From Pelagomonas calceolata (taxonomy: Eukaryota): DNA of 64,000 bases. The position numbers and the translations under genes were made by a program. The stretch spans positions 3,224,001-3,288,000 of the forward strand of contig CAKKNE010000004.1 in NCBI GenBank assembly GCA_918797485.1. Direction: 5' to 3'. Shown here one piece after another: positions 975-38,000 of this stretch. Positions within the stretch are counted from its first letter, which is position 1. Every line of letters begins with the position of its first letter. Below the pieces are notes generated by a model. That model searched no databases. It worked only from the letters and a program-made list of their open reading frames with translations, and was not told where the DNA came from.

Positions 975-2232
975 TCAATAAAGGTCGACGCTCCGCCCCG
1001 CGAAAGCCGCGTCGACGGCCTCGACGAGCTCGCCGAGGATCGCCTCGACCAGCCCGGGCGAAAAGCAGAAGTGCGTGCAGTCGCGGCCGCCCGGGTGCAA
1101 GTCCCAGAGCGGCTGCGTGAGCTCGTGGAGCCGGAGCATGCGCAGCCGCGGCGTCGGTCCGCCGGTGCGGTTCCCCTGGGCCGCGCGGAAGGCGTCCCAG
1201 GCGACGGCGTTGCGCCAGCCCGTGTCGAGCTCCGCCTCGGGGTGCTGCCGTCCCGCGCCGTGGCAGGACGCGTTGTGGAACGACGCCGGCACGCAGTTGT
1301 AGTGCGCGATGGGGCGCGCGCTGGATTTCATCCCAGATGCGAAGTAGCCGCCCGTCGTCGTCGCCTGTGTGGAAATCAAAATTTTACGGCGCGTTCCTCC
1401 ACGCCATCGACGCGACGCCTGCTCGATGGCGTGGCGATGCCGGTTCCGCTCGACCGAGCCACGACGGCCGCGTCATGCACCCGACGCACTGGTTGATTTC
1501 CACACAGATCGTCGCGAAGTGCTGGGCCGTCGTTTCCGCGTACAGGGCGACCGCGCCCGCGTCGACGGCCTCCATGAGGACGGAAAAGATGACCTTGAGG
1601 TGCGCCGCCAGCTCCGCGTGGTCGTGGTGGTGCAGCCCCATGTTCGCCACGAAGACAGTTTGGGAAGAGGCCGCGCCCACCACGCCCCGCTGCCACGCCT
1701 CGTTTTCGGTGGACGGTATTATAGGAGCCCCCGCTGGAAGCAGGCTTCGACGAGCGACGCCCAACTCATCGAAGGGACTGAAGCCGCAGTACTCTTGGCT
1801 CGTCTCGACGATCTGCCGCGCCACGGAGTCGCCCATCCACCGGACCAGAGTAATGTCGCGGCGCGCCCGCATCTCACGATACGCTCCGCAACGATTGGTC
1901 GCGTTGGGCCCGGGGAGCCAGCTCGGCCACGCGTAGGTCGACTTACGCGCCCGCAGCGCGGGCCAGCCCTCGTGCGGCCGGTTCGGTACCGCGTTCACGA
2001 ACTTCGGGCAGTCGTGGCGCGTCTGGTGCTTGCCGTCTTGCCGATGAGGCTTGCAGGCTTTTTTTGTGCAGTTGCCCGCCGTGAAGAGCAGGCAGGCCTC
2101 GCAGTCAGTGCGCGGCACGGCCGCCCAGACGGCGCGCTGCGCCGTGTCGTTCCGCGACGAGAGGTCGTAGGTGCGGCAGGCCCGCTCGGTCGCGCTGGCA
2201 GCAATGAGCGTGCAGAGCAGGTGCCGGATCAT
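975..2232 (-). CDS. Secreted SGNH/PC-esterase (TBL-like O-acyltransferase/esterase); exons 2232-1516 and 1364-975
   Basis: Signal peptide MIRHLLCTLIAASA, WMGDSVARQ (GDS) in exon 1, RDCTHFC (DxxH) in exon 2; removing 1365-1515 joins the two ORFs in frame. Confidence 0.75.
1365..1515 (-). mobile_element. Introner-type intron (GC-AG) with 15-bp TIRs and 8-bp TSD
   Basis: TIRs ctgtgtggaaatcaa (1365-1379) / ttgatttccacacag (1493-1507); flanks gtcgtcgc (1357-1364) / atcgtcgc (1508-1515); splicing restores frame. Confidence 0.85.
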
Positions 2233-2644: not shown

Positions 2645-3412
2645 ATGGAGTTCATCACGCAACAAACACAAAGCATGAGCCTCGCCGGCGCGCCGCCGCA
2701 GCGCCAGCCCAAAAAGTACGGCGGCGGCGGCCAGCGCCACCAAAAGAACCGCCGCGGCGGCAAGGCGAATCACAACAAACAGAAGCAGCCGGGCGACAAC
2801 AAGGAGAACCAGAGGAACGGCGCCAACGCGCGAAGGAGGCACCGCCAGCACCGCGGCGGCGGCGGCCAGAAGCGGGCCCTCGCGGCCGCGGCCGCGGCCG
2901 GCCAACCGCCGCCGCAGGGCTTCTACTGGGTCGGCTACGGCGGCATGCCCTTCCAGCCGGCGCCGGGGACCTACCCGAACCGGACCTACGTCAGACCCAA
3001 CGTACAGGCGCCGCCACCGTGGCCGGGCGTCTTCCACGCGCCGCCCCGGGCGCCGGCCGAGGAGGGACCCTCGTTATGCTTCACGGTCGGCGACACGCCG
3101 GCCAAGGCCGTCGTCACGCCGCAGCGCAAGCCGTCTTCTACAATCTGCCCGACGACCTGCGGGCCGACGCCGAACTCGGACGCAAAGCTGCGGCGGAACC
3201 TCGCGGACGTCTACGCGTCCTTCGACTGCGTGCTCATGAACCACGCGATTGAAGTGAGCGAGCGGGCGGCGGCTGCACGGACACAGGGGCCACGCGAAGA
3301 GCTCACGGCCGACGCGGCGTTGGCGGCGGCCGCGGCGGCTTCTGCGGATGCGGCCCTTGCCGCTGCGGCGGACGCCGCGCTCGGGGATGCTTCGACGTCG
3401 TCGGAGAGGTGA
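2645..3412 (+). CDS. Hypothetical low-complexity protein
   Basis: ORF from accATGgag, GC-rich third positions, Gln/Gly/Ala-rich; no recognised domain. Confidence 0.6.
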   Translation: MEFITQQTQSMSLAGAPPQRQPKKYGGGGQRHQKNRRGGKANHNKQKQPGDNKENQRNGANARRRHRQHRGGGGQKRALAAAAAAGQPPPQGFYWVGYGGMPFQPAPGTYPNRTYVRPNVQAPPPWPGVFHAPPRAPAEEGPSLCFTVGDTPAKAVVTPQRKPSSTICPTTCGPTPNSDAKLRRNLADVYASFDCVLMNHAIEVSERAAAARTQGPREELTADAALAAAAAASADAALAAAADAALGDASTSSER

Positions 3413-3472
3413 CACGGTGCGTAAGAAGACATATCGTATGAGTCCGACGTCGCGTCGATAGCGTTCCGCGCT

Positions 3473-21371: not shown

Positions 21372-22133
21372 CTACCAGGCCTTGTTGTGCTCGCCGGGCA
21401 TGAGCTTCTTGCCCTTGCCCTTCAGGGCGGCCACGGCCTTCGTTTTCAGCATTTTGTTCCACCACGCGCCGAGGCCGTCCGGCAGCTCGCTCTCGTCGAC
21501 GGCCGCCGTGAAGGACGAGATCGCGAGCTCGAGGGCCGTGAATAATAAGAAGTCGCTGTAGTTGACGGGCGCGTCGGCCGACGTCACCGCGGCAAAATGC
21601 GTGAGCCACTTCTGCTTGCGGTCGCTCCCGAAGTCGGGCTTCGTGGCCTCGGTGATAAAATCCACGGCGTCGCAACAAATCTGGAGCGCCTTCGCGTCGG
21701 CGGCGGCGTCGGCCGGGGCCAACCCGAGCTCGTGGCCGAGCACGTGACAAATGGCGGGCGTCTGGCTCACGACGACGCCCGACGGCGTCTTTATGGCCGG
21801 GAGCGCGAAGATGCCCTCGGGCTTGTGGGACTGGTCCTTGATCACGTATTTTGTGCCTGCGCGGTGACGGCGTGGTGAGCCGTCCGGGCCTCAGGCCCTC
21901 AGCCGGCGACGGGCCGACGGAGTCACGGCGCCGTCGGCGCGGTCGCGACTGGAGCCGCGCGCCACGGTTGCGACAAATCCACGCCATCGACGCGACATTA
22001 ACAAGCCCGAAGCCGCGTCGATGGCGTATCGTAGGCGCGGGCTCGGACCACTCTCCTCAAAAATGAGCAAAGGGCTTAGGGCTCTCCCATAGAATTCTCC
22101 ACACGCGCCCCAATAATACAGCTCATACGCCAT
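21372..22133 (-). CDS. Glutathione S-transferase; exons 22133-22049 and 21856-21372
   Basis: MAYELYYW...GRA..., FALP, SQTPAI, NYSD; GT-AG intron 21857-22048 gives in-frame ESG-TKYVIKD. Confidence 0.85.
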
Positions 22134-24507: not shown

Positions 24508-25323
24508 ATGCCCTCCCACCTGCAGCCTCTCCTCGTCGTCGCATTGATCGCATTCGTGCCCGCGGCGACCGCACTAGTGGTCGGAGGCATCGACATCCCA
24601 CATGCAAAAGTATCACCCACGTCCCGAGCATTAGAGGACCAGACCTACCCCGACAGGTGGCCCTTCGACGCTCGGGATTTAACGCCGCAGGACCCGAGCG
24701 ACGACCAGCTCTTTTATCTCATCCCGAAATTCGTGCAGCATGCGGGAGCGGAATGCAGGGAGTCACTGACAAAGTACTACGGCTGCGTCCTGCCGGATAA
24801 TGGTGATGTGCTGGATTTGTGCAGCTCCTGGACGTCGCACTACCCCAAAAACTACAAAGCGAAGCGCTGCGCCGCGCTCGGGTTGAATGCGTTGGAGCTC
24901 CTCGCGAACCCCGCGAAGACCGAATGGACCGTGCGGAACCTCAACAAGGACCCGACTTTACCTTATGATGATAATAGCTTCGACGTCGTCACGAACAGCC
25001 TGTCGGCGGACTACCTCACGAGCCCCCTCGAGGTGTTCAAAGAAATCAGGCGCGTGCTCAAGCCGGGCGGCCTCGCGGCGATGGCGTTTACAAATAGATG
25101 TTTTCCCTCGAAAGTAGTCCCGTGCTGGACGCGGCCCTTCACGGAGCCGTCGCACGCGCGCATCATCGCTTCTTATTATCATTATGCGGGCTTCGATGAT
25201 GATGATATATCGGTGGTGGACGTGTCGCCCGACGGCTGGGTGGGCCAGCGCGATCCCATGGTCGTCGTCCAAGCGCGGAAAGCGCCGGCCGACCGGTTGG
25301 GGAGCCTCGAGGCGCTGGCGTAA
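24508..25323 (+). CDS. SAM-dependent methyltransferase (type 11), signal peptide
   Basis: VLDLCSSWTSH, LPYDDNSFDVV, S.DYLT.P..VF.EI.RVLKPGG, FTNRCFP. Confidence 0.9.
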   Translation: MPSHLQPLLVVALIAFVPAATALVVGGIDIPHAKVSPTSRALEDQTYPDRWPFDARDLTPQDPSDDQLFYLIPKFVQHAGAECRESLTKYYGCVLPDNGDVLDLCSSWTSHYPKNYKAKRCAALGLNALELLANPAKTEWTVRNLNKDPTLPYDDNSFDVVTNSLSADYLTSPLEVFKEIRRVLKPGGLAAMAFTNRCFPSKVVPCWTRPFTEPSHARIIASYYHYAGFDDDDISVVDVSPDGWVGQRDPMVVVQARKAPADRLGSLEALA

Positions 25324-25382
25324 GTATTTGTTGTGAAACTGCACACGGGACGCGTCTTAGGCGGGGGGAGGGAGGAAACAGA

Positions 25383-25979
25383 CTAGCCCTTCATGGTCTT
25401 GCCCGGCGGCAGCGCGCGCGAGGCGAAGCCGTGGAACGAGAGCCGCGCGGACAACTCCGGCGGCCCGCCGTCCTTGCCCTTGGTCCACTGGTAGAGCTCC
25501 GTGTTCGCGCGCGACTCCTTGTCCGTGACGACGGTCGTCTGGCCGTGGGCCCAGCCGACCTTGAAGTTCGTGATGCCGTTCCGTTCTTCCTCGGGCACGT
25601 TCAGCACGACGCATTTTATGGAGGCGGGCACGTAGGTCTTGGGCGGGCCGTCGTCCTTCTTCACCGCTCTCTGAGGCTCGGCGGGCTCGAAGCAGGCCTC
25701 GTAGTCGTCGCAGCGCGGGACCGGGCCGCCTCTCACGCCCTGGGGCAGGACCTCGACGCACTTCGCACTCAACCAACCATTGAGCGGCTCCGTGACGCGG
25801 CAGCGGCCTATTTTGGTCCCGTCGCCCTTCAGGTGGAAGCCCGACTCCCACACCCGCACCTCGGCGCCCGTCGGCAACTCTCCTATTAACTCAGAGTCGA
25901 GGGCGCGGCCCGCGCGGACGACGGCGCCCTGGTTCGCCTTGACTCGACATAGGTGGCCGCACCAGGCCTCGGCGACCAT
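25383..25979 (-). CDS. Hypothetical protein with SH3b-like N-terminal region; 5'-UTR intron 25994-26258 inferred
   Basis: MVAEAW...AVVRAGRALDSELIGELPTGAEVRV...RCRVTEPLNGWLS; upstream AG|GTGAGC donor and CGCGCAG| acceptor. Confidence 0.65.
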   Translation of the reverse strand: MVAEAWCGHLCRVKANQGAVVRAGRALDSELIGELPTGAEVRVWESGFHLKGDGTKIGRCRVTEPLNGWLSAKCVEVLPQGVRGGPVPRCDDYEACFEPAEPQRAVKKDDGPPKTYVPASIKCVVLNVPEEERNGITNFKVGWAHGQTTVVTDKESRANTELYQWTKGKDGGPPELSARLSFHGFASRALPPGKTMKG

Positions 25980-26017
25980 CGTTGACGTGGTACCTGCGCG
26001 CGGCGCCGCGTCGCGTA

Positions 26018-26088
26018 AACCGCCCGAGGGAATCGAACCCCCACTGCGCGGGCTAAAGCCACGAGTCCTCCCATTAGACCAGAGCGGT
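26018..26088 (-). tRNA. tRNA gene with TTA anticodon (putative ochre suppressor; Glu/Gln-like body)
   Basis: Reverse complement folds as ACCGCTC TG GTCT AATGGGA GGAC T CGTGG CT-TTA-GC CCGCG CAGT GGGGG TTCGATT CCCTC GGGCGGT T: all four stems pair, with T8, A14, G18G19, T33, TTCG and A15-T48 present. Confidence 0.85.
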
Positions 26089-26411
26089 CGTGGACGCCGG
26101 CGCGGCGCCTCAGTCTCGTCACGACGACTGCGGAGGCGACAGCTTTGCCTGTGGGGAATGGGGTCTGGCGCTGCGCTTTTGATGCGCGCGGCGACGGCGT
26201 GGTGGCTGCCCTCTCTTTGGCGGTGCGCGCGTCGATTACGAGACACGCGTTAGCTCACCTATGCACTGCACAGCGAGGAATGCCACCACAAACAAAGTGG
26301 CCTCTTGCAAACGAGTTCGGGTTTTGCGCGTGACCACCGAGCTCTGCCGCCACGTAGGACTCCTCCTGATGCACAGCAGAATGATGCCTAACGGACGCAT
26401 CCCGGGAAGTG

Positions 26412-26435
26412 GCTAGTGTCTTACAGGCCGCTAGC
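26412..26435 (+). promoter_or_regulatory. CTAG-N14-CTAG element, consensus copy
   Basis: gctagtgtcttacaggccgctagc between divergent transcription units. Confidence 0.85.
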
Positions 26436-26608
26436 GGATTATATGCTCTCCGCGCGCTCGAGAGAGAAAGCGGCTCACGGGTGCATTTCAGACGCGCTCA
26501 CGCTGTAGACCAGTAGCTGAGACTGCCACCCAGCACTCCAGCAAAAAAATCCGCTCCGCGCGGCGCTCAGCACGAGCAACAGCCTCGATCCACCCGCAGC
26601 GAAACGCC

Positions 26609-28312
26609 ATGGCCGAGATCACCGTCGGTTCAGAAGTAGAGAAGAAGTTCCCGGGCTACGGTGTTTATCAGGGCACCGTCGAATCCATTGATGGTGATAC
26701 GTGCCTCGTGCGGTGGCGCTGCGCCGAGCCCGAGGAACCCACGACTTTAACACTGGCCGAGGCCGCCAAGTGCCTCGTCACCAAGCACAAATCACCCCCA
26801 TCGAAGAAGAAAGCCACGAAGAAGCCCGCGCCCAAGCGCGCCCCACCCACTGATGATGAAAAACCGTCAAAGAAGACGAAGAAGGACCCGCCCAACGCGG
26901 CAGCGCTCGCGAACGCGCCGGGCGACGCGAGCTGTGCGGCCGAGGTGCGCACGGGCCTCAAGAAGGTTGAGGCTTATGCCCAGAACTGGTTGAGCAAGCA
27001 CAAGAAGGATGACGCGCCTTCGGGAAGTGAGGTCGTCGAGATGTTGAAATTGCTCAATGGGAAATGGCCGACGCAGGCCCGGCCGAACGTGACGGACACC
27101 GGAAGACCGGTGCCGGGCATGTGCGCCGGGTTGGTGTTCGCTCTAGGGCAAGGTGCTCGCACGTCGCTGATCTCGACCAATCATCCCCAGATGACGAAAT
27201 TTCTGGTCAAGTGGTGCCGGGCGACGCTCCCGAAGACGAAGAAGGGCGCGGAGTTCCCCTTCTCGTCGCTGCAGGTCAATTATAATTATGCGGTGCGATG
27301 CCGCGTATCTTACCGTCGCGTCGATGGCGTCCACCGTTGACACGCGCAGGCCAAGAAACATGTTGATGGGAATAATATAGGACCGTCCTACATCATCTCG
27401 CTAGGGAAACACACGGGCGGCAACCTCTGGACGGCGGACCAAGGTATCATCGAGTGCCACGACCAGTGGAAATTGTTCGACGGGAATACCGAGCACTACA
27501 CGACGCCCTTCAAAGGTGAAAGGATTTCATTTATAGCCTTCGCCCACGAGCAGTACAACAAGCTCGAAGCTCCAATCGCGAAGAACTTACAAAGCTTAGG
27601 CTTCACGGCGGCGCGGTCGGATCGAAAGGATCTGGAATTCTTCGCTCGGTTTCGGATTGAGCGTAGTTACTTGACGGAGGAACACAACGCCAAGTTCAAG
27701 GCCGAGCTCAAGAAGCGCGCGCAGAAAAGCGCGCCGGCCTCGACGCTCAAGCTGCATGATGTGGCGGTTGAGTGCTATGGCAGGCAGGCGGACCGGGGCG
27801 GCGGCTGGATGGCGTTCCACGGTATTAATGGTGTGGAGACGTTGCAACTCACCCCGAACAGTGTGGGCATTTGGTGCGCGGAGCTCAAATTTGTTGATGG
27901 CAAGCTCGCGTTAGTTTCGCACAAGCGGTTGGACTTCTATAATAAGAGAGAAAAAGCCACCGCCGAGTTCCAGAAGCAAGTCGAGAAGATGAAGGACGGC
28001 ACGCCCGTGTTACTCGGTATTGCTGATACGGCCTGCGCCGCGTCGCGGCCGTTGGGCCAAGGTTTGTATAATGCGCTCTACAAGCTCGGCGCGCCCAAGG
28101 ACATGCCCAAGATCGAGTACCGGGCGGCCTGGGCCTTTATTGGCTATAAAGGAGCGAAGGCTGGTACGGCGCAACACGCCATGGGCACGCGGTCCACTCT
28201 ATTGAGATTGGACGCGTCGATCCCGAAGAAAGGGTCCCTGGTGAAGAAGGACGTCGACAACACGTCGATCATCGACGTCTGCATCGGCACGGGCCAGGAC
28301 TCTGCCAAATAA
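26609..28312 (+). CDS. Tudor + TET/JBP-like 2OG-Fe(II) dioxygenase + ILEI-like domain protein; exons 26609-27292 and 27350-28312
   Basis: GT-AG intron 27293-27349 gives LQVNYNYA-AKKHVDGNNIGPSYIISLGKHTGGNLW...LFDGNTEHYTTPFKGERISFIAF (HxD..H..RxS); N-term VGSEVEKKFPGYG; C-term LG.....IEYRAAWAFIGYKG. Confidence 0.75.
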
Positions 28313-35093: not shown

Positions 35094-38000
35094 ATGCCCA
35101 AGGCCCGCTTCACCGTGAGCGACGTCGCCGCCATGGCAAGAGAAGTGCGAGAAAGGTGCGGCGACTGGCGCGTCAACCAAATTTATGATGGGGACGCCCG
35201 GACGTTCGTCCTGAAGCTGCAGCAGTCTGGAATTCCAGAAAAACGCTTGTTACTCCTAGAATCGGGCACGAAGTTCCTCGTCACCAAATTCGATGCGCGC
35301 GAAGATCCACAAGCTATGCCGTCGCCCCTATGTTCGAAATTGCGTTCATCGTTAAAAGGCAAGCGTCTGACCGACGTGAAAGCGCTTGGTAGAGATCGAG
35401 TCGTTTCCCTGCGCTTCGGCGCCGGGCCCGGCACGTTCAACTTATTCCTCGAGCTGTACGCCGCGGGCAACGTCGTTTTGTGTGATGCGTCGTATGTCGT
35501 GGTCGCCGCGCTACGCACCGACAGCCTCAAAGTCGGCGACTCATATACTGTTGCGGTGCGGGCCGTGGCGCCGCCTTCAGAATTACTGCCTGCTGATGGA
35601 CTACAAAAGTTCTTGGAAGAAGCTTTACGCACGCGCGTCCAGCGGAGCGAGGCCGCGGCGCTCGCGCAACAAACGAAGAAGAAGAAAAAAAGAAGAGGCG
35701 CCTGGACCCTCGCCCAGCTTTTGTTGGATAGAGGTAGTGGCGTCGACGCCTACGGCAGTGATGTGGTGGACCACTGTATCGTAGCGTCGGGTCTCGACGG
35801 CTCGTTACCACTAGCCGAGCAGCCCGAGGACTACGTCCACAAACTCCACGCGTCCTTACGAGCCGCGCCATCCTTGGCCGACGCCATCACCACAGGCACT
35901 TGTGGCAAACCTCGTCTACTGTTAGAAAACGACAAATTCGTCTCGTTCGCACCCGGCGTGTTTTTGCAGCACGAGGCCTACGACGTGCGAGAATTTTCGT
36001 CGTTCTGCGAAGCGGTAGATGAATACTTCCGGGAAACGAAGGAAACGAAGTTACAATCGAAAGCTAAAGATGCTACCCATGCTATTACCGCGAAGGTCGA
36101 GAAGATCCGCATCGATCAGAAACAGCGCGTTGACGATCTAGAAGCTTCCCTAGCACTGAAAGAGAGAACTGCATCGTTGTTAGAAGAACGAGCGGACCAG
36201 ATCGACGCCGTCGTGCAGGTGCTGAACAATGCGCTACAGTCGGGCTTGCGGTGGGATGAAGTACAAGATTACGTGCGCGAGGAGCAGGCGAAGGGCTCTC
36301 CCCTCGCGTCGTTAATTCAAGAAATTGATTTTGAACAACGAGTAGTGACAGTGGCACTAGATGAGTGTTCCGCAAAAGTCTCGCTCGATGAAAGTGCGCG
36401 CGCCGCATCATCCACACTATGGTCGTTGGCAAAAAAAGCTAGGATGAAGGTCACAAAAACGCAGGAGGCTTCCGTCTCTGTCATCAAAGCGGCCGAGAAA
36501 CAAGCCGACAATAAGTTGAAAGCAAGGGCCTGGCAGCAGGACGCATCGCGCCTGAAAAGACAGAAATCCACACAAGCGTGGTTCCAGCGCTTCGCCTGGT
36601 TCGTTTCCTCCGAAGGGTTCTTAGTGGTCGCCCCTAGGGACAAAGGACAATGTGAACAAGTTTTATTTGGTGGGGTTCTCCGTCCTACCGATGCTCTGGT
36701 GCTCTGCGAACAGAACGGCCCCCCTACAGTAGTACGAGCTAGGAATGGTGTGTTATCACCATTGGCCCTGCACGAGGCCGGGTGCTTCGCGGCGTGTCGC
36801 TCGGACGCGTGGCAGCGGCGGGATCGCGCGCCGGCCTATTGGGTGCCCGGGTTTTCTGTGCGGCGCGTCGGCTCATCTAATAGTACGCAAGTGCTGAACG
36901 TGCTGGGAGACGTAGCGATTTCATCTGGTACGAAGAAGACGTATTTACCACCTACTCAACTAGAGCTCACTTTCGCGCTGCTCTTCAAGCTCTCGGATGA
37001 CAGTCTGGAGGCGCATTCAGGTGATAGGCCCGGTCGCGTGCCCGACGAGGAATTGTTGCGGTTGACACCGTCGGAAGAAGCTACGGAAAGTGAGGAGGAG
37101 GTTGCGCCTGTTGTTGTCGAGGACGCTTTGCCGCCCGCGCCGGAGCCGCACTTCGCGCGTACCGGCCTGTGTGGAAATCGACGCGCGTACCGGGCACGGG
37201 GACAATGTCGCGTCGATGGCGTGGAATCGCCGCGCCATCGTGCGGACGCGTCGCGTCGGTGTGGCGCCCAAAATTTGATTTCCACACAGGTACCGGCAAA
37301 CTCACGGCGAGGGAGCGCAAGCTCCTCAAGAAGTATGGCGGTGATATCGACGCCATGCGCGAAGCGGAGCAGCGGCGCATTGGGTCTAGAACGAGAGAGG
37401 GTAGACGGGCACCGTCGCCCGAGCCTTTGCCGGTAGACGAGGAGGAGGAAGTGCCGTCACCTGTGCAACAGAAGAAGACTAGTAGAAGACAGCGCGGCCA
37501 GAAGAAGAAGAAGAATAGACGGAGGGACGACTCGTCTGAGGACGAGGGACCGCGCGTGCCGCTGCGGTTGCAGAAGGTGCCCACTATATCTCGTAAAAAG
37601 AAGACGAAGAACGAGGGTTTGGAAGTATTAATAGGGATGGGCTTCGCTAGAGATGCCGCCGCCGCAACGTTAGCCGCACATGATGGTGATGTAAATGCCG
37701 CCGCGACGGCGTTGTCCGCCTTTGATCAAGAAGAGGAAGCACCGCCAGCACCACCGTCGACGGCGGAGTTGCTGGACGGGACTTCATCTCAAGCCGTAGC
37801 TCGATTAGGCCCGCTCGCGTCAGACGCGTGGGCGCGCTGTACGAGGGAAATTCCAGCATTGGACGAAGCGGCGATGGCTTATGAATTACACAGAGTGGCG
37901 GATTTGAATGACGACGCGAAGGCTTGTCAGGTTTTTGAGGCCTTTTTAACGGCCGACGTCGAGGAGCGGGAGCGAAATGATAGAAGGAGAAACGAGGCCG

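What the first reader, a model, noticed from the sequence alone, without database searches (positions are those of the whole stretch)
26018..26088. Intact tRNA with a UUA anticodon (reads the UAA stop) in a genome that uses TAA as a stop
Seen: full cloverleaf with 7/4/5/5-bp stems (only Watson-Crick and G-U pairs), invariant residues intact, anticodon loop CT-TTA-GC. The D-arm and 4-nt variable loop resemble tRNA-Glu, but A1-T72, G37 and T73 are atypical, so it is not simply a one-base mutant of a standard tRNA. Many genes here end in TAA (myosin, NEMF, AP4E1, PSMD9) and no conserved CDS contains an in-frame TAA, so there is no wholesale code change. Inference: a dedicated ochre-suppressor or programmed readthrough tRNA, a tRNA with novel identity, or a non-translational tRNA-like RNA.
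Basis: partly seen in the sequence, partly recalled or inferred. Interest (0 to 1): 0.9.

Follow-up and report, generated by a model that had tools for sequence, protein, structure and literature searches.

The report
Paired stop-codon tRNAs inside algal introns
This alga carries a small, conserved family of well-formed tRNA genes whose anticodons match the stop codons UAA and UAG although most of its genes here end in those codons; this copy sits inside a spliced-out intron, and the family likely reads through stops weakly or only in special contexts, which is untested.

Summary
The tRNA is real: ARAGORN and Rfam call it, and TTA recurs in an independent DNA run and in an orthologous metagenome contig (71/71 identical). 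It is not a lone mutant. Contigs of the same organism show at least four copies, three TTA and one CTA (the CTA copy in one run only). A more distant eukaryote contig (L069) carries a tandem CTA + TTA pair of the same family. Six stem pairs co-vary and 97% of cells pair. The window copy fills a 115-nt GC-AG intron with inverted-repeat ends in a 5' UTR, spliced in 44 poly(A) reads. TAA/TAG end 23 to 27 of 28 genes and no in-frame UAR was found in a clear gene, so there is no wholesale recoding. The body matches no tabulated synthetase identity set; glutamine is the best guess. Best reading (0.45): weak or conditional UAA/UAG decoders. Rivals: uncharged non-elongator role, mobile-intron passenger, edited anticodon. 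Mature tRNA, charging and readthrough were not shown. Not found in print in 7 searches.

The parts
26018..26088 (-). tRNA gene, 71 nt, anticodon TTA, no encoded CCA
   Evidence: ARAGORN, Rfam RF00005 49.5 bits; identical in X14 contig and L093
26054..26056 (-). anticodon T34 T35 A36, followed by G37 (26053)
   Evidence: sequence; paralogue with 26056 A>G, i.e. CTA, in X3 record 17
25994..26108 (-). 115-nt GC-AG spliceosomal intron in the 5' UTR of the host gene; holds the tRNA in sense orientation
   Evidence: joint 25992/26108 in 27+9+7+1 = 44 raw poly(A) reads and an RNA contig; the cut placed one base on, within the 3-base ambiguity, gives GC..AG
26098..26109 (-). 5' inverted-repeat arm of the intron
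   Evidence: 12 nt, 92% complementary to 26002-26013; conserved in L093, L102, L112
26002..26013 (-). 3' inverted-repeat arm of the intron
   Evidence: whole intron folds as a stem that extends the acceptor stem, -55.7 kcal/mol, no shuffle control
26109..26148 (-). non-coding exon 2 of the host gene; its last five bases are shared by all four intron copies aligned
   Evidence: RNA contig X12 record 1, alignment A2
26149..26258 (-). upstream 110-nt GT-AG intron of the host 5' UTR
   Evidence: joint 26147/26258 in 3+4 raw reads and X12 contig
25383..25979 (-). host gene CDS, 198 aa, no Pfam family, ends in TAG
   Evidence: cluster of 151 members, 13 of the 15 listed are 198 aa

Best explanation
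This is one member of a conserved two-anticodon (UUA + CUA) tRNA family in an organism that still stops at UAA and UAG, and the family likely works on the ribosome as a weak or context-limited reader of these stops, most likely inserting glutamine. Shown: cloverleaf, paralogues, both anticodons in two lineages, compensatory stem changes, intron location and splicing, UAR as the main stops. Inferred: the gene is transcribed from its intact internal A and B boxes or cut out of the excised intron; RNase P/Z and CCA addition mature it; a synthetase that keys on Y34-U35, G10 and a weak 1-72 pair charges it poorly, because the acceptor stem lacks the usual glutamine sequence; release factor therefore wins at nearly all gene ends and readthrough is confined to a low level or to particular mRNAs. 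In this lineage the gene has been copied between loci as the cargo of an introner-like intron; in L069 it is an ordinary intergenic tandem pair.
For: Anticodons are only TTA or CTA in every member seen: 4 TTA + 1 CTA among 5 metagenome genes, 3 TTA + 1 CTA in the window's organism. A U34/C34 pair with fixed 35-36 is the pattern of isoacceptors for a purine-ending codon box (established knowledge). Loop, D arm and variable loop stay fixed while the anticodon stem changes on both sides: 6 of 21 pairs and 11 cells with two-sided change, 97.1% of 105 cells paired, 0 of 500 shuffles reach it, slid controls 40-58% (5 distinct rows, related). The CTA paralogue adds two more compensated pairs, 31-39 and 29-41. 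U33, G18G19 and the T loop are intact; G37 in 5 of 5 family sequences against 5 of 88 other stop-anticodon tRNAs. 0 of 71 substitutions against 30 of 320 in other non-coding positions versus L093, Fisher p 0.003. G10, Y34 and U35 are listed glutamine determinants in bacteria (PMC9976931 Table 1, passage).
Against: No mature tRNA, charging or readthrough was shown; poly(A) reads over the body come from a paralogue's retained intron. No sign that stops are leaky: a second in-frame stop within 6 codons in 11 of 28 genes against 22 of 56 in the other frames, p 1.0; genes do not escape to TGA (1 of 28 hand-picked, 5 of 28 by rule). No target mRNA found. Positions 1-72 and 73 differ between lineages, and G2-C71, G3-C70, G36, A37, U38 of the bacterial glutamine set are absent; no eukaryotic glutamine set is tabulated. 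The intron arms and neighbouring UTR exons are about as conserved as the tRNA (1/20, 1/24, 1/40, 0/14). Only three T follow the window copy, a weak Pol III terminator. The CTA copy of this organism was seen in one run, which may be the window's source.
Confidence: 0.45

Rival explanations
1. The RNAs are made and folded but are not elongator tRNAs: they stay uncharged, or are charged for another use, and act by pairing with stop codons (a helper or brake of termination, a decoy for an anticodon nuclease) or off the ribosome.
For: No tabulated identity set is met, and 1-72 and 73 are free to vary. No genomic footprint of leaky stops. Copy ratio TTA 3: CTA 1 runs with stop usage (TAA 14-17, TAG 9-10), which fits any stop-pairing role.
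Against: T arm, D loop and U33 are elongator-like; six of seven acceptor pairs are kept, two by two-sided change. An off-ribosome role gives no clear reason to keep both U34 and C34.
Confidence: 0.25
2. A tRNA-shaped passenger of a small mobile intron (MITE or introner), kept alike by recent copying or gene conversion, with no function of its own.
For: The unit shared by four loci is the whole intron with inverted-repeat ends and sharp borders; arms as conserved as the tRNA; one copy has a 7-nt insert in the loop that could be a damaged tandem duplication; L102 has a C-C mismatch at the base of the T stem.
Against: L069 holds the same family without the intron, as a tandem pair before a T8 run and near an ordinary tRNA-Ile; two-sided stem changes between and within lineages; few copies, none other in the window; no target-site duplication seen.
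Confidence: 0.15
3. The anticodon is changed after transcription, most simply A36 to inosine, so that TTA/CTA become the two glutamine isoacceptors.
For: A single change at 36 turns the pair into UUG/CUG; D stem, short variable loop and U73 are of the glutamine type; no same-body TTG/CTG copy appeared in four runs laid at 80% likeness.
Against: I recall no deaminase for position 36 (recalled, not searched). Acceptor stem differs from the GGTTC-type stem of the eukaryote-type UAR tRNAs in the scan, which are at most 46/71 identical. Copy ratio TTA > CTA is opposite to codon use here (CAA 118, CAG 283; also GAA 216/GAG 613, AAA 177/AAG 433); n = 4 is weak. No A-to-G at 26054 in raw reads, but those are unprocessed intron RNA.
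Confidence: 0.1
4. UAA and UAG are reassigned genome-wide, or are sense inside genes and stop at their ends as in Condylostoma or Blastocrithidia.
For: A UUA + CUA pair is what UAR-recoded nuclei carry (PMC5304391, passages).
Against: 28 genes, 11,982 codons, 401 CAA/CAG, 27 end in TAA/TAG. Of 96 TAA/TAG triplets preceded by coding-like sequence, 15 were also followed by it; on inspection these were antisense shadows, gene ends facing another gene, or one unclear stretch at 3410-3424, none inside a clear gene. Cluster members end at the same residue. One 64-kb window only; the gene set is stop-free by construction.
Confidence: 0.03
5. Assembly error or lone decayed pseudogene.
For: X3 and X5 contigs do not show the insert-free copy at this locus.
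Against: X14 contig and L093 reproduce it exactly; family and covariation.
Confidence: 0.02

Closest known systems
tRNA-Gln(UUA) and tRNA-Gln(CUA) of UAR-recoded nuclei (Tetrahymena, Condylostoma, hexamitin diplomonads; PMC5304391 passages)
   Same: A pair of stop-cognate anticodons, short variable loop, glutamine-type D stem; U73 in the window copy.
   Different: Those differ from ordinary tRNA-Gln at about one anticodon base and serve a code with in-frame UAR. Here UAR are the main stops, the acceptor stem is unrelated, 37 is G, and eukaryote-type UAR tRNAs in the scan are at most 46/71 identical.
Yeast SUP4-o, tRNA-Tyr with a UUA anticodon (PMC10275265 passage)
   Same: UUA anticodon in a standard-code cell; an insert at the canonical 37/38 intron site in one paralogue.
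   Different: SUP4-o is a laboratory mutant with the C1-G72/A73 tyrosine identity, absent here; this family is natural, multi-copy and includes CUA.
Putative UAA suppressor tRNA-X of the Vischeria mitochondrion (PMC4824035 passages)
   Same: Stramenopile alga, unusual tRNA proposed to read UAA where UAA is otherwise a stop.
   Different: Mitochondrial, single gene, expanded anticodon loop, and a known target (rps3 with in-frame TAA). Here nuclear, 7-nt loop, paired anticodons, no target found.
Pelagophyte introner elements (PMC9481584 Supplementary Note 3, passage; bioRxiv 10.1101/2022.06.06.494994 passages)
   Same: GC donor, AG acceptor, terminal inverted repeats, the same intron at unrelated loci, a few element bases left in the mRNA.
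   Different: 115 nt against a peak near 210; 71 of 115 nt are a tRNA gene; about four copies; UTR positions; no target-site duplication seen; the word tRNA does not occur in the main text of the introner preprint.
Stop-anticodon tRNAs of phages (gut and rumen contigs)
   Same: TTA or CTA anticodon; some occur where that codon is still a stop (earlier finding e1-9727454, unchecked here).
   Different: Different body: profile scores 69-78 bits for the family against at most 29 for the rest; mostly A37; no family member in viral or GTDB contigs.

Membership tests
tRNA (Rfam RF00005) | Cloverleaf with invariant residues above the gathering score | tested here: met
   49.5 bits vs 29; ARAGORN
tRNA (Rfam RF00005) | Mature, CCA-ended, aminoacylated RNA | not testable with these tools
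   Only poly(A) libraries and contigs were available
tRNA-Gln(UUA/CUA) of UAR-recoded nuclei | Both UUA and CUA anticodons in one genome | tested here: met
   X3 record 17 (one run); L069 tandem pair
tRNA-Gln(UUA/CUA) of UAR-recoded nuclei | Body nearly that of ordinary tRNA-Gln, with its acceptor stem and A37 | tested here: not met
   Acceptor stem unlike L077, L101, L105, L063, L026, L052; at most 46/71 identity; G37. The organism's own tRNA-Gln was not available.
tRNA-Gln(UUA/CUA) of UAR-recoded nuclei | In-frame TAA/TAG in conserved genes; UAR not the main stops | tested here: not met
   (window only)
tRNA-Gln(UUA/CUA) of UAR-recoded nuclei | eRF1 with altered stop recognition | not tested
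   No genome held; no eRF1 sequence fetched
tRNA-Tyr-derived ochre suppressor (SUP4-o type) | C1-G72 and A73 | tested here: not met
   A1-U72/U73 or A1.A72/G73 against Table 1 of PMC9976931
tRNA-Sec / tRNA-Pyl type special decoders | Long variable arm (Sec) or Pyl body with its own synthetase | tested here: not met
   4-nt variable loop; ARAGORN's Pyl label for L069 follows the anticodon alone; no 'pyrrolys' entry in the stored part of one published pelagophyte annotation (file cut)
Pelagophyte introner (TIR type) | Spliced intron with GT/GC donor and AG acceptor | tested here: met
   44 spliced reads; GC..AG
Pelagophyte introner (TIR type) | Terminal inverted repeats | tested here: met
   12 nt, 92%
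Pelagophyte introner (TIR type) | Target-site duplication and many dispersed copies | tested here: inconclusive
   No duplication visible in 4 aligned loci; at least two unrelated host genes; about four copies; genome not held
tRNA-derived SINE | Decayed tRNA head, tail and high copy number | tested here: not met
   Intact co-varying cloverleaf, no tail, one copy in 64 kb
Canonical eukaryotic tRNA intron (paralogue with 7-nt insert) | Insert after base 37 with pyrimidine 32 pairing to the third-last intron purine | tested here: met
   L112 insert placed after G37 has G third from its end opposite C32 (rule from PMC10275265 passage); removal of the insert was not shown and other placements are possible

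The most novel reading that the evidence does not exclude
Pelagophyte-like algae run a hidden second reading of UAA and UAG in a standard-code nucleus: a dedicated tRNA pair with its own identity, kept away from ordinary stops and used only on chosen mRNAs (a selenocysteine-like, signal-dependent recoding) or used uncharged as a stop-codon-pairing termination factor, and spread through the genome as the cargo of self-copying introns.
Probability: 0.15. Interest if true: 0.93.

Novelty: new variant of a known kind. Interest (0 to 1): 0.74.

Why it matters
Cognate UAA/UAG tRNA pairs in nuclei are known from lineages that have given up these stops. A pair kept by selection where UAR are the main stops would be either a natural, tolerated readthrough system (the ambiguous intermediate that theories of code change need, and a model for suppressor tRNAs that spare normal stops) or a new use of tRNA at stop codons. 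The organism is culturable by the look of its public RNA runs, so charging, editing and readthrough are directly testable. A tRNA gene carried in an inverted-repeat spliceosomal intron, and a possible 7-nt tRNA intron, are unusual in their own right.

Tried and rejected
No whole genome is held, so the full tRNA set, ordinary tRNA-Gln genes and eRF1 were not seen. Folding z-score is uninformative. Viral contigs: exact 29-nt pattern 0 hits, family-body pattern 0 hits, loose pattern 5 hits of other bodies. GTDB genomes: 0 hits. The metagenome scan required TTA or CTA and stopped after 15 of 64 parts, so it cannot show same-body genes with other anticodons nor the full range. Lineage of L069 could not be fixed: its protein has only itself as a hit, no Atlas hit; its dinucleotide ratios resemble the window's, which is weak. 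The L069 frame sent to Pfam was out of register, so that row says nothing. Host protein of L102/L112: 8 unnamed relatives. A Pfam scan across stops gave no result; a codon-score test replaced it. Tandem-stop enrichment: none. Apparent TGA avoidance (1 of 28, p 0.004 against local triplets) fell to 5 of 28 in a rule-based set, so I do not claim it. The idea that the window's upstream exon is a duplicated tail of the L102/L112 host gene was not supported: similarity stops five bases into the exon. Organelle import as the purpose: no recoding mentioned in the passages of PMC7936722 that I saw; not pursued. Earlier-findings look-ups by sequence, place and first word set returned nothing. Literature: 7 searches showed no report of this family; subscription papers and tRNA databases are not covered; supplements of PMC4967479 and PMC10089648 as held had no pelagophyte rows, the large data archive of the former was not among them, and bioRxiv supplements are closed.

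Full report
Observation. The 71 nt at 26088-26018 (minus strand) form a full cloverleaf with anticodon TTA at 26056-26054. ARAGORN calls it tRNA-Stop, the only tRNA in the window; Rfam RF00005 scores 49.5 bits against a cut-off of 29. Minimum free energy is not better than shuffles (z 0.05). The window is GC-rich eukaryotic DNA with short introns; a pelagophyte-like alga is my inference and was not established.

It is not an error. Of four contig sets laid on 25300-26800 at 80% likeness, X14, from another study, spans 26019-26340 without a difference. L093, a metagenome contig, is the orthologous locus (91.7% over 653 nt) with 0 of 71 substitutions in the tRNA against 30 of 320 in other non-coding positions (p 0.003) and 9 of 247 in the CDS. 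The nearest flanks are also well kept (1/20, 1/24, 1/40, 0/14), so this test alone does not single out the tRNA. X3 and X5 show a 7-nt insert in the contig that could stand for this copy; collapse with a paralogue is the likelier cause, an allele is possible.

It is a family with two anticodons. One search shows three further loci: A (X3 record 16, X5 record 23; anticodon unchanged, one listed change in the variable loop), B (X3 records 15 and 18, X12 record 3; TTA plus a 7-nt insert after base 37) and C (X3 record 17 only, depth 488 against 523-591 for the window's flanks), in which 26056 A>G gives CTA and four more changes keep the anticodon stem paired (31-39 G-C to A-U; 29-41 U-G to G-C). 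The metagenome scan asked for TTA or CTA with this D arm and returned 119 loci from 15 of 64 parts; 4 loci with 5 genes belong to the family, scoring 69-78 bits on a family profile, of which they are the training set, against at most 29 for the rest. The other loci look like phage or ciliate-type tRNAs by sequence and low GC; I did not annotate them. L102 and L112 are the B locus in two other lineages, without and with the insert. L069 (71% GC, lineage unknown) holds a tandem CTA + TTA pair 84 nt apart, between genes, before a run of eight T and near an ordinary tRNA-Ile; the copies are 52/71 and 55/71 identical to the window's. Across 5 distinct sequences 97.1% of 105 cells pair, 6 of 21 pairs change on both sides, 0 of 500 shuffles reach the paired share or the covariation score, and slid controls give 40-58%; the rows are few and related, so this is support and not a probability. 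Fixed: D arm, U33, T35-A36-G37, variable loop, T loop, pairs 2-71, 5-68, 6-67, 7-66. Free: anticodon stem, 1-72 (A-U or A.A), 73 (U or G). No member was found in viral contigs or GTDB genomes.

Context. Raw poly(A) reads join 25992 to 26108 in 44 reads and 26147 to 26258 in 7. The tRNA therefore fills 71 of 115 nt of a GC-AG intron in the 5' UTR of the 198-aa gene at 25979-25383, on the same strand. The intron ends are 12-nt inverted repeats that extend the acceptor stem in the fold. The same intron, with five exon bases before and three after, stands just behind the TGA stop of an unrelated gene in L102 and L112, where those five bases supply the stop. GT/GC donors, AG acceptors and inverted repeats are the marks of pelagophyte introners (PMC9481584, supplementary passage), and one Aureococcus family leaves element bases in the mRNA (10.1101/2022.06.06.494994, passages). 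No target-site duplication was seen. Reads over the tRNA body carry B's flanks and insert (16 of 26 at 26049 in X21, 6 more clipped there), i.e. a retained intron and not mature tRNA. The insert, placed after G37, has the third-last G opposite C32, the rule for eukaryotic tRNA introns (PMC10275265, passage); it also resembles bases 4 nt downstream and could be a damaged duplication; ARAGORN parsed it once as an intron giving ttt and once as tta.

The code is standard here. From 145 ORFs of 150 aa or more, 48 passed a GC3 filter. I picked 27 genes from the list and added one: stops TAA 17, TAG 10, TGA 1, 11,982 codons, 401 of them CAA/CAG. A rule-based set gives TAA 14, TAG 9, TGA 5. Of 96 TAA/TAG triplets with coding-like sequence before them, 15 also had it after; by eye none lies inside a clear gene, one stretch (3410-3424) being unclear. 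Relatives end at the same residue. There is no excess of back-up stops (11 of 28 against 22 of 56).

Mechanism. Keeping U34 and C34 variants with fixed 35-36, in two lineages, with free but always paired anticodon stems, is what decoding of a purine-ending codon box selects for; read as written, that box is UAA/UAG. But an efficient pair would clash with the stop usage, and the genome shows no sign of leaky stops. The simplest reconciliation is weak charging or restricted use. The body meets no identity set in Table 1 of PMC9976931 (passages): tyrosine (C1-G72, A73) and histidine fail; glutamine shares G10, Y34, U35, the D-stem type and, from my recall of bacterial suppressor genetics, the weak 1-72 pair, but lacks G2-C71, G3-C70, G36, A37, U38. 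One published pelagophyte annotation lists two glutaminyl-tRNA synthetases, one with a bacterial best match and an extra tRNA-binding domain, and one eRF1 in the stored part; an organellar role for the second is the plain reading. I give weak or conditional readthrough 0.45, an uncharged or non-elongator role 0.25, passenger 0.15, edited anticodon 0.10, hidden recoding 0.03, error 0.02. Every step after splicing is inferred.

Known relatives and novelty. It works like the UAR tRNA pairs of recoded nuclei (PMC5304391, passages) but fails their membership tests on body and on codon use. The Vischeria mitochondrial tRNA-X (PMC4824035, passages) is the nearest stramenopile case and differs in compartment, loop and having a target. 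Twenty predicted suppressor genes among about 11,000 tRNA genes of Phytophthora (PMC9584435, passage) are scattered predictions. Seven searches (listings only) showed no report of this family; other papers seen as passages only were PMC7936722, PMC8450103, PMC4967479 and PMC10089648. tRNA databases may already list these genes as Sup without comment. Verdict: real, conserved, new variant of a known kind; interest 0.74.

Noticed in passing
window 857, 2433, 3474, 6541, 20492, 26413, 34882, 44291, 46518, 47607, 49895, 52284, 61609, 63525: A 24-nt motif with 5-6-nt inverted ends occurs 14 times (0.38 expected, 0 of 100 shuffles); 13 of 14 lie outside the 28 genes used, 11 within about 430 nt of an ATG, several between head-to-head genes. 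At 26413 it lies about 30-45 nt before the RNA 5' ends at 26457-26469. Likely a promoter element.
   Followed up: partly
L112:286-363 (-); paralogue B: 7-nt insert at the 37/38 position with a possible anticodon-intron pair: a very short tRNA intron or a damaged duplication; absent from the orthologous L102.
   Followed up: partly
paralogue B, X12 record 3 and X21-X24 reads: The tRNA-bearing 3' UTR intron of locus B is retained in poly(A) RNA and is about 150 nt longer than in L112.
   Followed up: no
window 1396-1416, 21978-21997, 37206-37225; L102:536-557: A 20-nt repeat shared with L102, probably the end of another introner family.
   Followed up: no
L069:1463-1472 and 1859-1932: A third B-box-like 10-mer just upstream of the tandem pair (possible tRNA relic) and an intron-less tRNA-Ile(TAT).
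   Followed up: no
L077:1200-1496; L018:819-946: Other contigs with neighbouring stop-anticodon tRNAs (TTA + CTA of the ciliate type in L077, two CTA in L018).
   Followed up: no
PMC9481584 supplement 4, row 3755: A published pelagophyte has a second glutaminyl-tRNA synthetase with a bacterial best match and a fused tRNA-binding domain.
   Followed up: no
window 3410-3424 (+): TGA and TAA four codons apart with coding-like sequence on both sides, between two long ORFs; intron, gene border or real readthrough not resolved.
   Followed up: no
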